Origin: an uncultured Verrucomicrobiae bacterium
GTDB taxonomy: Bacteria; Verrucomicrobiota; Verrucomicrobiia; Chthoniobacterales; UBA10450
Direction: 5' to 3'
Assembly: GCA_963726745.1 (NCBI GenBank)
Contig: CAVSDR010000005.1
Span: 155,286-219,285, forward strand
DNA: 64,000 nt
Made by a program: the position numbers and the translations under genes. Positions within the stretch are counted from its first letter, which is position 1. Every line of letters begins with the position of its first letter. Positions 324 through 57,048 of the stretch are shown one piece after another. The notes under the pieces are model-generated. The model saw nothing but the letters and a program-made list of their open reading frames with translations, did no database searches and was not told the DNA's origin.

Positions 324-2249
324 CTAACGAGTTATCCGCATGCGACCGAGTGGAAGCGGCGGAGCCAGTAACGGAATCTCCGCCCCGGTCTTGGGCTGCC
401 AGGTGGCACGCGACCGGTCCATGAAAAGAAGCTCGCCCTCAAATTCGCCGGGAGCGAGATCGGCTGGCGGATTAACCAACCATTTCTCTACATAAAGGCC
501 TTCGCCCGCTTCCGGCGCGGCGAGTCCGCGCTGCAGGATGAAAGGCGGTCCGCCATTGCCTGGTCTTAGGCGAAGCACCATCCATGGGAAGACTTCCCGT
601 TCCACACCGAATTGCCAGGTTAAGGTTAACTCGAGTGCTTCCCGTGATGAGAAATTAGCCGACGATTTCTCAATTTTGAGGAGCTTCGTTCCCGCGCCCA
701 TTTCGATTACCGAGACGGCATTCTCCAGCGCGGGCGCGGCGCGCTTTTCCACCCGTCGCAGAAGCGTTAGCTCGTTCTGCGAGACGGATTCCCATTGCGC
801 TTTGACCAGGAAATCGTGGAGCAATTCCTCGCTCGAGGGGAACGCTTCGCCGCGGGCTGTGCGCATGCGCGGATGGAAGTAACCCGACCCCGGATCGAAG
901 GTCGCCTGGTCGCCGTAATCCAGGAGCACGTAATCGGTCGGCGGCGGTGGCTGGAAACGTTCACGGCTAAGGGTGCGCAGGCCTTTGAGAATGTAATGGA
1001 GCGAGTGCAGTCGCTCGCGCAGCGCCAAGTGAGTGAGGTAGGGAAGCGGCGCGACCACGCTCGCTTCCGCCGGGATCGCGCGCAGGAATTCCTCCTTCCG
1101 TAATCGATCCGCTCGGCCACCCGACCATTCCTGCGCCGTGCGCAGCATGCCCGCGGCCGGGCCGATCCAAAGTTGCCCAATGAGACAGGCGGCGAGAATT
1201 GCCGGCGGCAGCCAGCGTTGGCCCCGGCGAAAACCAGCCACCGCTTCGACCGTGGCCAGCCAACAAAGCGGCAAGAGCGGCGCGGCGTAATGAAAGAAAA
1301 CCGTCCACTCCGACGAGCGCCAGGAAAGCAAGTGCTGCAGCAAAACAGGCAGCGCGATCAACAGCCAATGTGGCCGCAAGAGTGGCAGCGCCAGGAATGG
1401 GAGCAGCAGGGCCCAGAGCAAATTGCCGTGAGCTAACGAGTGGCCGAGCGCGCCCAGGGCGAGCTGAGGTTGCAGGATAAAATTGCGCAGGATCTCGCCG
1501 CCGGATGCACCCAAGCGATCGTAGAGTGCGAGGTAATCGATGTTCCCGGAGTTCAACGCCGGCGTGATCACCTTGCTGGAAAAAATAAACCAACCGAGCG
1601 CGCCCAGCATCGGCCAGGCATACCAGCGCAGCAGCTCGCGCCCTCCGCGTCGGCGCTCCCGCCAGGCCTCGACCACACAAAAAGCCGCCAATAACAGCGC
1701 CATGTTTTCCTTGCAGGCGAGCACCGCGGCGAACCAGCACCAGTAAGCGCCTACTCGTCGGCGCAGGCGCGCGTGCCACAGGAGCAAAAGGAAGGGAGCG
1801 GTCAGCGCTTCCGGGTGAAACTCGTGCAGCGCCACGTAACCCGTGGCCGGGATAAGCAGGAGGGCCAGCGCCAGCAGGACGCTCGCCGTTTCGCCTATGC
1901 CGGACCGGCGCGCGATCCGGTAGCCGACAAGTCCCATCGAGGCGAGCCCGAGGTTTTGCAGGACCACAAAGGTCATCGGATGCGGGAAGAGGAAGAAGAT
2001 CGGCGCGATAAGCAGAACGATCGGCTCCACGTGGTTGCCGAGCAGCGGGACGTATTGCACCGAGACCTCGAGGCGTCCGTGGATCAATTGCCAGAGCGCC
2101 TGCACGTAGTAGGCCAGGTCAAAGGTGCGATAGGCGAAACCGGCCCAGCGGGCCGCGGAAGTGGCGGTCCAGGCGAGGAAGCAAAGCAGCGCCACGCCTG
2201 CCACCAGCGTCGCGCCGCGGCCGTCGTTTCGCTCGCTCTCCCCGTGCAC
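324..2249 (-). CDS. DUF2079-family polytopic membrane protein (predicted GT-C-like glycosyltransferase)
   Basis: 641 aa; FDLAYYVQALW, LGNH, EFHP, CKE and FHY motifs; many TM segments and a soluble C-terminal domain. Confidence 0.75.
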   Translation of the reverse strand: MHGESERNDGRGATLVAGVALLCFLAWTATSAARWAGFAYRTFDLAYYVQALWQLIHGRLEVSVQYVPLLGNHVEPIVLLIAPIFFLFPHPMTFVVLQNLGLASMGLVGYRIARRSGIGETASVLLALALLLIPATGYVALHEFHPEALTAPFLLLLWHARLRRRVGAYWCWFAAVLACKENMALLLAAFCVVEAWRERRRGGRELLRWYAWPMLGALGWFIFSSKVITPALNSGNIDYLALYDRLGASGGEILRNFILQPQLALGALGHSLAHGNLLWALLLPFLALPLLRPHWLLIALPVLLQHLLSWRSSEWTVFFHYAAPLLPLCWLATVEAVAGFRRGQRWLPPAILAACLIGQLWIGPAAGMLRTAQEWSGGRADRLRKEEFLRAIPAEASVVAPLPYLTHLALRERLHSLHYILKGLRTLSRERFQPPPPTDYVLLDYGDQATFDPGSGYFHPRMRTARGEAFPSSEELLHDFLVKAQWESVSQNELTLLRRVEKRAAPALENAVSVIEMGAGTKLLKIEKSSANFSSREALELTLTWQFGVEREVFPWMVLRLRPGNGGPPFILQRGLAAPEAGEGLYVEKWLVNPPADLAPGEFEGELLFMDRSRATWQPKTGAEIPLLAPPLPLGRMRITR

Positions 2250-2339
2250 GCACTCCGCTTAGCCCGCGCCTGTGCCGGGCACAAGCGCCGCCGCTCGCGG
2301 ATGGCTCTTTGCAGCCTAACGAAAAATTCTTCGGAAGCG

Positions 2340-2355
2340 CGGCACCGCTCCTGCT
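2340..2355 (+). promoter_or_regulatory. Candidate sigma-54 (-24/-12) promoter of pilin copy 2
   Basis: CGGCACCGCTCCTGCT has GG-N10-GC spacing and resembles TGGCAC-N5-TTGCW; about 80 bp upstream of the ATG. Confidence 0.55.
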
Positions 2356-2436
2356 TTTAGCAAGACCTGTCAGTTCGTCCCACCCGGACGCAATCAAAAA
2401 ACCAAACCAGAGCAGTAACCAGAAAGAACCAGCAAG

Positions 2437-2836
2437 ATGTTAAACAAATTGAACAAGAATCGCGGGGGCTTCACCCTCGTGGAAATCATGATCGTGGTCG
2501 CGATTATCGCCCTCCTGGCGGCGATCGCCGTCCCCGGCTTCCTCCGTGCCCGCAAGCGCTCGCAGGCCAGCCGGATCATCAACGATCTGCGCCTGATCGA
2601 CAGCGCGGTCGACCAGTATGCGATCGAAACCAACAAGACCTCGGGCGCGACCGTGCTCGTGGCCGATTGGACCAACTACCTGAAGAAAGGGCACCAACCT
2701 CTACGTGACCGGGGCGGACCTCTTCGGCAACACCTACGGCAACCAGGCCGTCGACAAACTCCCGAGCGTGCCCACGGCGACCAAGACCGCCCTCTCGGAC
2801 GTGACCGACAACACCTTCTGGTCTCCGTATAACTAA
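2437..2836 (+). CDS. Type IV pilin-like protein, copy 2 (apparent 1-bp insertion near 2690)
   Basis: G|FTLVEIMIVVAIIALLAAIAVP class III signal peptide; removing one base at AAAGGGCACC restores the copy 1 C-terminus ending at TAA 2836. Confidence 0.9.
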
Positions 2837-55145: not shown

Positions 55146-55587
55146 TCGTCCACAGATTTCGCAGATTTACGCAGATTACTTTGGAGAAGGATCCGGAAAC
55201 TTTCGCGATTATCGGCGCTGCGATGGAAGTGCATCGCCAGCTTGGTCGCGGATTTTTGGAGCTTGTCTACCAGACTGCTCTCGCACTTGAATTTCAGGAG
55301 CGCGGCATTCCTTACAAAGCTGAAGTGGCGCTCCCGATTTGCTATAAAGGCAGGCTTCTGACCTGCGCCTATCGGGCCGACTTTGTCTGCTTCGAAAACA
55401 TTATCGTTGAGACGAAGGCCATCGCGAGACTGACCTCAGCCGACGACGCCCAACTCATCAACGAACTTAAGGCAACCGGCCTTCATCGCGGCCTGCTTCT
55501 GAATTTCGGAAGCGCCAGCCTGGAACAAAAACGTCTCGTCCACGGCCCCTCAGAAAATCTGCGTCAATCGGCGCAATCTGTGGACGA
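55146..55587. mobile_element. Putative inverted-repeat-bounded GxxExxY element
   Basis: 55146-55177 and 55556-55587 are inverted repeats (29/32 match) enclosing the nuclease domain. Confidence 0.6.
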
Positions 55588-55600
55588 AATTTCCCTGTAA
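55181..55600 (+). CDS. GxxExxY protein (PD-(D/E)XK nuclease fold)
   Basis: [23 protein letters not shown]...IIVETKA, GLLLNFG. Confidence 0.93.
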
Positions 55601-55613
55601 GAACCAAACAACT

Positions 55614-57048
55614 ATGAGCACCACTACGACAGCCCCCAAGAAAACCGACGACTACAAAGTCGCCGACATCTCGTTAGCCGATTTCGGCCGGCGCGAGATT
55701 GAAATCGCCGAGCAGGAAATGCCCGGCCTGATGTCGATCCGGAAAAAGCACGCCGCTTCCAAGCCGCTCGACGGCGTCCGCATCACCGGCTCGCTCCACA
55801 TGACCATCCAGACCGCGGTCTTGATCGAGACCCTGGTCGACCTCGGCGCCGACGTGCGCTGGTGCTCCTGCAATATCTTCTCGACCCAGGACCACGCTGC
55901 GGCCGCGATCGCCAAGTCCGGCGTGCCTGTCTTCGCGTGGAAAGGCGAGAGCCTCGAGGAATATTGGTGGTGCACCGACCAGGCGCTCTCCTTCCCCGGC
56001 GGCAAAGGCCCGCAAATGGTGGTCGACGACGGCGGCGACGTGACCCTCTTCATCCACAAAGGCTACGAGCTCGAAGAAGGCAGCGATTGGGTGAACACCG
56101 AGTCGTCGCAATCACGAAGAGAAGGTGATCAAGGACGCGCTCAAGGAGATCAAAACGCAGAACCCCTTCCGCTGGCATGAAGTGGTCAAGGAATGGCGCG
56201 GCGTCTCGGAAGAGACCACCACCGGCGTCCATCGCCTCTACCACATGCTCAACGCCGGCAAGCTCCTCGTGCCCGCGATCAACGTGAACGACACCGCCAC
56301 GAAGTCGAAGTTCGACAACCTCTACGGCTGCCGCCACTCGTTAGTCGACGCGCTCAACCGCGCCCTCGACGTCATGATTTCCGGCAAAGTCGCGGTCGTT
56401 TGCGGCTACGGCGATGTCGGCAAAGGCAGCGCGCAATCGCTCCGTGGCCAGGGCGCCCGCGTCATCGTCACCGAGATCGATCCGATCAACGCGCTCCAGG
56501 CCGCGATGGAAGGTTTCGAAGTGACCACGATCGAGGAAACCCTCGGCCGCGGCGACATCTACGTCACCACCACCGGCAACGTCGACATCATCACCTTCGA
56601 GCACATGTCGAAGATGAAGAACCAGGCCGTCGTTTGTAACATCGGCCACTTCGACAACGAGATTCAGGTCGACCTCCTCAACACCGCCAAGGGCGTCAAG
56701 CGGACCCAGATCAAGCCGCAGGTCGATAAGTATACCTTCGAAGACGGCCACGAAATTTTCATGCTCGCCGAAGGCCGCCTGGTGAACCTCGGTTGCGCCA
56801 CCGGCCACCCGTCCTTCGTCATGTCGAACAGCTTCTCGAACCAGGTCCTCGCGCAGCTCGACCTCTGGGCGAACAAGGACAAATACAAGCCCGCCGTCTA
56901 CATCCTGCCGAAGATCCTCGACGAGGAAGTCGCCCGCCTGCACCTCGAGAAAATCGGCGTCAAGCTGACCAAGCTCACCCCGAAGCAAAGCGAATATCTC
57001 GGCGTCCCCGTCGAAGGCCCGTACAAGAGCGAGCACTACCGCTACTAA
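55614..57048 (+). CDS. ahcY: Adenosylhomocysteinase (frameshift near 56110)
   Basis: [51 protein letters not shown]. Confidence 0.97.

What the first reader, a model, noticed from the sequence alone, without database searches (positions are those of the whole stretch)
324..56344. Core-genome tag motif CTAACGA(R): candidate DNA-uptake or chromosome-marking sequence
Seen: at least 28 copies of CTAACGA, 27 of them CTAACGAR and usually preceded by C/G. Plus strand: 324, 1433, 2316, 3842, 11007, 12701, 15028, 24473, 30807, 31887, 43311, 45003, 48820, 49471. Minus strand: 5471, 6427, 7332, 13690, 17281, 18974, 29413, 30473, 32312, 37555, 48867, 49794, 55670, 56337. A hand estimate with an eyeballed 65% GC predicts only about 4, and CTA/TAG looks scarce elsewhere here. 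It occurs in all six frames: TCG-TTA-G (Ser-Leu, 13), CTA-ACG-A (Leu-Thr, 5), CCT-AAC-GAR (Pro-Asn-Glu, 3), GTT-AGG (1), as stop codons (3), plus 3 intergenic copies. It forces rare TTA/CTA/AGG codons into strongly biased genes (ahcY twice, leuS, uvrA), so the signal is at DNA level rather than protein level. Strands are balanced (14/14) with no clear flip at dnaA. Established: non-palindromic, orientation-neutral, codon-embedded motifs of this density are the behaviour of Neisseria DUS and Pasteurellaceae USS, whereas Chi and KOPS are replichore-polarised and cyanobacterial HIP1 is palindromic. Inference: a self-DNA uptake signal, a nucleoid/segregation protein site or a modification-driven motif; I know of none described for this lineage.
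Basis: partly seen in the sequence, partly recalled or inferred. Interest (0 to 1): 0.88.

Follow-up and report, generated by a model that had tools for sequence, protein, structure and literature searches.

The report
Two genome-wide DNA tags, soil Verrucomicrobia
An uncultured soil bacterium has two different short DNA words written thousands of times through its ordinary genes, each spread out independently of the other; they behave like the "self" tags that Neisseria and Haemophilus use to choose which DNA to take up, but no reader protein or uptake has been shown.

Summary
Confirmed. All 28 CTAACGA copies are there (2.9 expected). The word is GCCTAACGA(G): 1,312 copies in this Chthoniobacterales genome, 67-fold over a Markov model, 16-fold over a synonymous-codon null, unpolarised, aperiodic and missing from islands. 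It marks one family: 192 of 201 genomes exceed the highest count among 261 genomes of 15 sister families. This scan already noted this 9-mer on other DNA; I found no paper on it.

New here:
- A second, degenerate motif, SAWNNYGYYGGCTAWW (about 5,500 sites, 96 in the window), strong in 2 of 201 family genomes.
- A third word, TGTCGATCT, in another part of the family, coexisting with the first.
- Each motif avoids its own kind below about 300 bp but ignores the other, so there are probably two readers.

Best reading (0.55): molecular drive from sequence-biased DNA uptake, as for DUS/USS. comEC, dprA and type IV pilus genes are present. Against: no pilin tracks any motif, ComEA is broken here, low-motif genera keep comEC, terminator pairs are absent, and uptake is untested.

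The parts
324..49477 (+). Motif M1, core CTAACGA of consensus GCCTAACGAG: 14 plus-strand copies starting at 324, 1433, 2316, 3842, 11007, 12701, 15028, 24473, 30807, 31887, 43311, 45003, 48820, 49471
   Evidence: consensus from 2,025 genome copies
5472..56344 (-). Motif M1: 14 minus-strand copies with lowest coordinates 5472, 6428, 7333, 13691, 17282, 18975, 29414, 30474, 32313, 37556, 48868, 49795, 55671, 56338
460..56970 (.). Motif M2, SAWNNYGYYGGCTAWW: 96 EM-called sites on both strands (32 by strict pattern). Strong examples, given as the position of the C of CTA: +5856, +7895, +9231, +20959, +24607, +28775, +31530, +45215, +51608, +53472; -658, -18386, -20517, -37632, -52375
   Evidence: validity
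2437..2832 (+). Type IV major pilin copy (PilA-like); its C-terminal half reads out of frame against the paralogue just upstream of the window
2994..3398 (+). Type IV major pilin copy (PilA-like), part of the candidate uptake machinery; not shown to bind either motif
25948..27315 (-). dnaA: landmark; neither density nor strand of the motifs changes here
57162..64000 (+). Motif-free defence island (C5 cytosine methyltransferase, MzaB-like and fragmented MzaC/Z1-like genes); no M1 or M2 site from 57487 to the contig end (6.5 kb)

Best explanation
M1 and M2 are uptake-sequence-like tags built by molecular drive. SHOWN: two non-palindromic motifs are written into core DNA by point substitution, on either strand, at the cost of rare codons and changed residues, and are absent from acquired islands. 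SHOWN in this genome: a site is less often present when another of the same kind lies within about 300 bp, and the two kinds ignore each other. INFERRED: a protein reads each motif on double-stranded DNA in a step where one site per fragment is enough. INFERRED: that step is DNA uptake by the type IV pilus/ComEC route, so fragments carrying a site enter more often and recombine, alleles that create a site spread, and alleles that destroy one are overwritten. INFERRED: there are two readers, an old family-wide one for M1 and a faster-changing one (M2 here, TGTCGATCT in another clade); density differences between species reflect how often each lineage transforms.
For: Excess: 1,565 copies in CDS against about 98 after synonymous shuffling. 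64% of Ser-Leu-Gly and 62.5% of Pro-Asn-Glu/Asp use the motif; SLG 758 vs reverse GLS 415, and 9.8 vs 3.2 per 10,000 residues in high-motif relatives against 3.3 vs 3.5 in low-motif ones. This matches the tripeptide doubling reported for USS/DUS (PMC2817400, passages). Strict core: one-off variants at core positions are at or below expectation. No polarity, 790/855, p=0.11, and no periodicity. Self-avoidance: pair ratio 0.49 at 10-200 bp, the lowest of 162 7-mers of similar abundance; permissive codon sites are occupied 30% of the time within 100 bp of another M1 and about 60% at 0.5-2 kb. In H. influenzae a second USS within 100 bp adds no uptake (PMC7811141, passages). Absent from islands; no exact M1 in the rRNA region. 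Family-limited. Sites are shared at orthologous positions with high-motif congeners (13 of 18, 9 of 20) but not low-motif ones (1 of 29, 1 of 16). Machinery: intact three-domain ComEC, DprA, PilB/PilC-type genes, 3 secretins, 18 pilin-like proteins. A ComEA-type HhH hit is found in 37 of 42 genomes with 1,000 or more GCCTAACGA against 72 of 159 others (hand count; few genera, so not independent).
Against: No receptor: no pilin orthogroup tracks M1 or M2 across 9 genomes; the PilX-like protein tested over 54 genomes tracks neither; no intact pilin has a strongly basic head; no ComP family hit in the 16 of 18 pilins scanned. This genome's ComEA-like gene is in pieces, and many genomes rich in TGTCGATCT have no ComEA HhH hit. 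comEC is near-universal (190 of 201), including the low-motif genus g29 (22 of 22); one g29 genome showed no motif of any kind in 81 kb. No terminator pairs: 8 close inverted pairs genome-wide, unlike DUS/USS (bioRxiv 2025.10.24.684340, passages). Self-avoidance is weak or mixed in relatives: in 200 kb of G316 there is an excess at 10-50 bp and only a mild deficit at 50-150 bp; in 200 kb of G062 it shows in single bins only; 60 kb of G013 shows none. Two independent tags in one cell are not expected from one receptor.
Confidence: 0.55

Rival explanations
1. Drive from another biased step of homologous DNA transfer rather than pilus binding: a cutting, loading or protection step on incoming DNA, or donor-side packaging or export that starts at the motif.
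For: Predicts the same saturation, strand neutrality and island absence. Needs no pilin receptor, and none was found. Two independent motifs fit two different steps.
Against: No candidate gene was identified. The SNase-HhH protein is patchy inside the family and present in motif-free families. Avoidance at about 300 bp is short for packaging or conjugative tracts (inference).
Confidence: 0.17
2. Binding sites for a sequence-specific chromosome protein (nucleoid organiser or repair loader) kept by selection, one site per few hundred bases being enough.
For: Even spacing (M2 variance/mean 0.6 per 10 kb in core windows); 91% of the genome lies within 500 bp of a site; sites are conserved between congeners.
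Against: Density runs from 13 to 4,633 copies within the family and more than 10-fold within one genus, hard to fit with an essential structural role. No periodicity and no helical phasing; no ori or ter trend.
Confidence: 0.14
3. Modification-driven accumulation: a methyltransferase marks the motif and repair, or methylation-gated uptake, favours the marked allele (HIP1-like or Campylobacter-like).
For: One-off variants are not in excess. One N6/N4 methyltransferase is found in all 5 genomes checked, and MutS in all 5 checked. HIP1 is read by two methylases and linked to transformation (PMC13756078, abstract).
Against: A purely local repair bias gives no reason for occupancy to depend on a neighbour 100-300 bp away. 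Sites of 9-16 bp are long for such enzymes (own knowledge). The C5 methylase is not found in 2 of 5 genomes and sits in a motif-free island here. The shared N6/N4 enzyme occurs across different motifs; the strong GTAC and CTAG depletion offers it more ordinary targets.
Confidence: 0.1
4. Chi- or KOPS-type replication-oriented signal, or an origin-region parS-type site.
For: Short, asymmetric and genome-wide.
Against: No polarity on skew-defined strands (M1 790/855; M2 2,032/1,992); density is flat along all contigs.
Confidence: 0.02
5. Artefact of base calling, codon bias or protein repeats.
For: The assembly has frameshifts (split ahcY and uvrC). M2 is strong in only two genomes.
Against: M1 is abundant in assemblies of 400+ contigs and at orthologous positions. 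M2 needs a whole 14-base context (214 vs 1.1 per Mb in congeners), and none of the 210 genes ending on an M2 stop continues in frame. Three M2 sites lie in public contigs with no differing letter (possibly the same sample).
Confidence: 0.02

Closest known systems
USS of Pasteurellaceae (H. influenzae core AAGTGCGGT, as read in PMC2817400)
   Same: 9-10 bp asymmetric core, about one per 1-2 kb, either strand, mostly in genes, doubles the encoded tripeptides, under-represented in acquired DNA and rRNA, limited to one family. M2 resembles it in shape: an A-rich left end, a GC core and an AT-rich right flank.
   Different: Other phylum and unrelated sequence. No terminator pairs. Close pairs are depleted here, whereas 23% of USS lie within 100 bp of another. 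Two independent motifs per genome. Uptake untested.
DUS of Neisseriaceae and its dialects (GCCGTCTGAA, read by ComP; PMC3630211)
   Same: Strict short core with tolerant flanks; lineage-specific words within one family; codon-embedded.
   Different: DUS dialects share a CTG core and replace one another; M1 and TGTCGATCT share no evident core and coexist at full strength in genus g18. No ComP hit.
HIP1 of cyanobacteria (GCGATCGC)
   Same: Hyper-abundant, under DNA-level constraint, very variable in density, recently tied to transformation.
   Different: HIP1 is palindromic, is recognised by methylases and is periodic at 18-94 kb in many genomes; these motifs are asymmetric and aperiodic.
Chi and KOPS (recalled)
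   Same: Short asymmetric over-represented words.
   Different: They follow the direction of replication; these do not.

Membership tests
DNA uptake sequences (DUS/USS) | Short asymmetric motif, hundreds to thousands of copies, far above compositional and codon nulls | tested here: met
DNA uptake sequences (DUS/USS) | No replication-strand polarity; genome-wide | tested here: met
DNA uptake sequences (DUS/USS) | Embedded in coding sequence, inflating the encoded tripeptides | tested here: met
   benchmark PMC2817400
DNA uptake sequences (DUS/USS) | Under-represented in acquired DNA and rRNA | tested here: met
   12 gaps over 3.5 kb with GC 58-63% and mostly low coding scores; no exact M1 near the rRNA genes, but three strong M2 calls just upstream of the 23S gene
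DNA uptake sequences (DUS/USS) | Frequent inverted pairs in terminators | tested here: not met
   8 close inverted pairs among 2,025 copies
DNA uptake sequences (DUS/USS) | Complete competence machinery | tested here: inconclusive
   comEC, dprA, pilus genes and secretins present; ComEA-like gene split in this assembly; comF and comM not searched
DNA uptake sequences (DUS/USS) | Sequence-specific minor pilin receptor (ComP, or predicted ComN/PpdA) | tested here: inconclusive
   no ComP family hit in 16 of 18 pilins scanned; no pilin tracks the motifs; a diverged receptor would escape these tests
DNA uptake sequences (DUS/USS) | Motif raises DNA uptake or transformation | not testable with these tools
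   uncultured lineage; needs an assay
HIP1 | Palindromic octamer | tested here: not met
HIP1 | Long-range periodic spacing | tested here: not met
   periodogram peaks within the null on the two largest contigs
HIP1 | Cognate methyltransferase | tested here: inconclusive
   target sequences unknown; type I and D12-class methylases not searched
Chi / KOPS | Replichore polarity | tested here: not met
   790/855, p=0.11
REP / MITE-type repeats | Intergenic, inserted, often palindromic copies with shared flanks | tested here: not met
   78% of copies are genic; flanks are unrelated beyond about 12 bases; orthologues mostly differ by substitution

The most novel reading that the evidence does not exclude
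A large family of soil Verrucomicrobiota runs a third, independently evolved self-DNA uptake code with two channels: a family-wide tag (GCCTAACGA) and a second, exchangeable lineage tag (SAWNNYGYYGGCTAWW here, TGTCGATCT elsewhere), each with its own unknown reader, so that gene flow in soil is filtered at two taxonomic depths.
Probability: 0.3. Interest if true: 0.93.

Novelty: new variant of a known kind. Interest (0 to 1): 0.78.

Why it matters
Sequence-specific uptake tags are described for Neisseriaceae and Pasteurellaceae, with HIP1 a recent candidate. A third case in a large soil family would show that self-DNA preference evolved again, and would imply frequent transformation in organisms that nobody has been able to assay. 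Two unrelated tags in one chromosome, and a 350-fold range in density over more than 200 genomes, give a natural series for testing molecular drive against selection and for finding a reader by comparative genomics. If a culture is obtained, the tags could help to get DNA into these cells. They also mark foreign DNA and could help to bin contigs.

Tried and rejected
- ATCTGTG in G005 and G002 looked like another tag but is a clustered tandem repeat, with about 100 copies of ATCTGTGT at most. The same holds for the local repeats in G017 and G015.
- Idea that M1 is a decaying relic replaced by M2: rejected, because there is no excess of one-off core variants.
- Idea that low-M1 genomes lack competence: rejected, comEC in 22 of 22 g29 genomes.
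- Receptor candidates: pilin orthogroups over 9 genomes (only the best 30 loci per search were fetched, so 14 listed pilin hits were not compared); the PilX-like DUF7305 protein; the SNase-HhH protein. None tracks a motif.
- Premature stops made by M1: the 41 in-frame continuations read as next genes in operons.
- I first took C6:175-184 kb for the rRNA operon; it is at C6:824-827 kb, so the apparent motif load in rRNA fell.
- Sequencing runs: one run holds 25% of the words; none of the 8 listed pieces (of 142) covers an M1 site, so it does not test M1.
- The reversed-pattern control of the genome search is unreliable for TGTCGATCT (its reverse contains CTAG), so genera were compared with one another instead.
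- No structure or complex prediction was run, as there was no candidate reader.
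Full report
OBSERVATION. Dinucleotide shuffles give 2.86 on average and at most 8 in 100 runs.

ORGANISM. The five best DnaA relatives (66-84% identity) are Chthoniobacterales or Spartobacteria MAGs. The genome (G000) has 3.41 Mb in 7 contigs. Its family, f1, holds more than 200 species-level genomes. That this is the family of Candidatus Udaeobacter is my recollection of GTDB, not a call result. The assembly has frameshifts, so broken genes need caution.

MOTIF M1. Genome-wide there are 2,025 CTAACGA (1,034 +, 991 -) and 1,312 GCCTAACGA, 67 times the order-3 Markov expectation and the top 9-mer; the consensus is GCCTAACGAG(T). In 2,893 called genes there are 1,565 copies against about 98 after permuting synonymous codons. 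The motif supplies 23% of all TTA and 24% of all CTA codons, and the stop codon of 302 genes. Of Ser-Leu-Gly tripeptides 488 of 758 use it, and of Pro-Asn-Glu/Asp 240 of 384. SLG outnumbers its reverse 758 to 415; in three high-motif relatives the ratio is 9.8 to 3.2 per 10,000 residues, in nine low-motif ones 3.3 to 3.5. At columns invariant in homologues, G000 differs at 4 of 34 M1 positions against 464 of 11,041 background positions (small numbers). One-off variants at core positions 3-7 number 73 against about 131 expected, beside 820 exact 10-mers, so the core is strict and is being maintained. Aligned congeners share the sites when they are motif-rich (G024 13 of 18, G013 9 of 20) and rarely when they are not (G003 1 of 29, G018 1 of 16), and the differences are mostly substitutions.

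DISTRIBUTION IN THE GENOME. Density is flat across contigs (4.5-7.0 per 10 kb). On skew-defined strands the counts are 790 and 855 (p=0.11), and no period between 0.3 and 150 kb exceeds the null on the two largest contigs. Twelve gaps over 3.5 kb lack both motifs; they have GC of 58-63% and mostly poor coding scores, and one is the last 6.5 kb of this window, a methylase plus MzaB/MzaC-like island. Only 8 close inverted pairs exist. Copies avoid each other: pairs at 10-200 bp are 0.49 of expectation, the lowest of 162 7-mers of similar abundance, whose median is 1.08. A codon-permissive site is occupied in 30 of 101 cases when another M1 lies within 100 bp, and in about 60% of cases at 0.5-2 kb. 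In relatives this is weaker: G024 4 short gaps against 11 expected, G013 11 against 10; G316 has an excess at 10-50 bp and a mild deficit at 50-150 bp; G062 shows deficits in single bins only.

The next enriched words resolve into SAWNNYGYYGGCTAWW. EM,498 sites, 96 of them in the window. A strict form occurs at 214 per Mb against 1.1 in six congeners, and none of the 210 genes ending on an M2 stop continues in frame. Three M2 sites lie inside public contigs with no differing letter (possibly the same sample). M2 also avoids itself (z -10 to -2.4 up to 400 bp), whereas M1-M2 pairs are at or slightly above expectation: the two are not alternative keys for one lock. Over 201 family genomes the strict pattern is strong only in G000 (1,904 against 90 for the reversed control) and G206 (934 against 119; another genus, with the variant GATCGCGYYGNCTA), and weak in G015; G011 is weak.

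FAMILY MAP. GCCTAACGA occurs 13 to 4,633 times in 201 family genomes, and 0 to 45 times in 261 genomes of 15 other families of the order; 192 of the 201 exceed 45 (hand count). A third word, TGTCGATCT(T), turned up in G050 and G126. It reaches 4,941 copies in G062 against 34-140 in genera that lack it, 60 in G000, and has the same strict-core profile. G062 also carries 1,803 GCCTAACGA, so two strong tags coexist there too. In 81 kb of G227 no motif was found.

MACHINERY. G000 has one intact ComEC of 847 aa with DUF4131, Competence and lactamase domains, DprA, two PilB-type ATPases with PilC, three secretins, a type II secretion cluster and 18 pilin-like proteins; two major-pilin copies lie in the window. 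comEC is found in 190 of 201 family genomes, including 22 of 22 in the low-motif genus g29, so it is compatible with uptake but does not discriminate. The ComEA-type protein of congeners is an SNase-HhH fusion. In G000 the SNase part ends before the HhH domain and half an HhH lies on another contig beside an island. A full HhH hit is found in 109 of 201 genomes: 37 of 42 with 1,000 or more M1 copies, 72 of 159 others (hand count; the 42 fall in six genera, so this is weak), and few of the TGTCGATCT-rich genera. No pilin group follows any motif. The C5 methylase is not found in 2 of 5 genomes; one N6/N4 methylase of unknown target is in all 5.

MECHANISM. Shown: DNA-level constraint, strand neutrality, absence from islands, a benefit that saturates within about 300 bp in this genome, and two independent signals. 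Inferred: a reader for each, acting where one site per fragment suffices, most simply uptake followed by recombination. That is the molecular-drive account given for USS/DUS (PMC2817400 and PMC7811141, passages; the Maughan 2010 model only as cited there). I give it 0.55; another biased transfer step 0.17; a chromosome protein 0.14; modification-driven gain 0.10; Chi/KOPS and artefact 0.02 each. It works like DUS/USS. I do not file it as a member: terminator pairing was tested and not met, and receptor and uptake are unshown.

WHAT IS KNOWN. Seven literature searches (I saw the listings only: 20 of 144, 3 of 4, 20 of 1,917, 1 of 1, 15 of 29, 10 of 211 and 15 of 140 papers) showed no description of these words or of an uptake sequence in Verrucomicrobiota. 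Only M1 strings were searched as letters, and the library lacks most subscription papers. Seen as passages: PMC2817400, PMC1939737, PMC7811141, PMC5861425, PMC3630211 and bioRxiv 10.1101/2025.10.24.684340. Abstract and outline: PMC13756078. Listing only: PMC12616744 (ComN predicted as USS receptor) and PMC8468864 (methylation-gated uptake in Campylobacter). No supplements were read; k-mer tables in them could mention these words. Earlier notes of this scan report GCCTAACGA in other Chthoniobacterales windows with the same reading. None of the notes shown mentions two coexisting motifs; one with its letters hidden may be TGTCGATCT.

UNPUBLISHED GENOMES. The M2 variant in a second genus, its pilins and its frameshifted ComEA-like gene rest on G206, which is also one of the nine low-motif genomes in the tripeptide comparison. 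G001, G008, G042, G191, G206, G334, G340, G419 and G450 enter the tallies; G001 and G419 are among the 42 high-M1 genomes. These may not be published without the depositors' permission. The findings on G000, and the family pattern as a whole, do not depend on them.

VERDICT. Real, strong and lineage-specific, and not found in print in my searches; most likely uptake-sequence-like, with two independent tags per genome as the unusual feature. Interest 0.78.

Noticed in passing
window 57162-64000: Defence island: a C5 methyltransferase followed by MzaB-like and fragmented MzaC/Z1-like ORFs, free of both motifs.
   Followed up: partly
G000:C4:17230-17874 and C2:230178-230270: The ComEA-like SNase-HhH gene is split over two contigs and has left its usual place beside a UvrD-type helicase gene; the HhH remnant borders a motif-poor island of about 11 kb.
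   Followed up: partly
window 324-5353 and just upstream: Three major pilin copies flank a DUF2079 membrane protein and TPR proteins; one copy appears frameshifted.
   Followed up: no
G000:C3:584329-586936 and C6:623392-626133: Two paralogous minor-pilin trios ending in a DUF7305 PilX-like protein; the trio near dprA is replaced by a different type in G013 and G206.
   Followed up: partly
whole genome G000: GTAC (0.16) and CTAG (0.28) are strongly depleted, and one N6/N4 methyltransferase (C3:981251-982042) has a counterpart in all 5 genomes checked.
   Followed up: no
whole genome G000: M1 often forms the junction between genes: it supplies the stop codon of 302 of 2,893 genes, in several cases running straight into the next start codon.
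   Followed up: partly
L097, L113-L115 (G005) and L093-L094, L105-L107 (G002): Clustered tandem repeat built on ATCTGTG, often in inverted groups; not a dispersed tag.
   Followed up: yes
window 55614-57048 and 12151-13690: ahcY and uvrC are split into two ORFs each, probably assembly frameshifts.
   Followed up: no
G000:C5:34716-34811: A selenocysteine tRNA is called on this contig.
   Followed up: no
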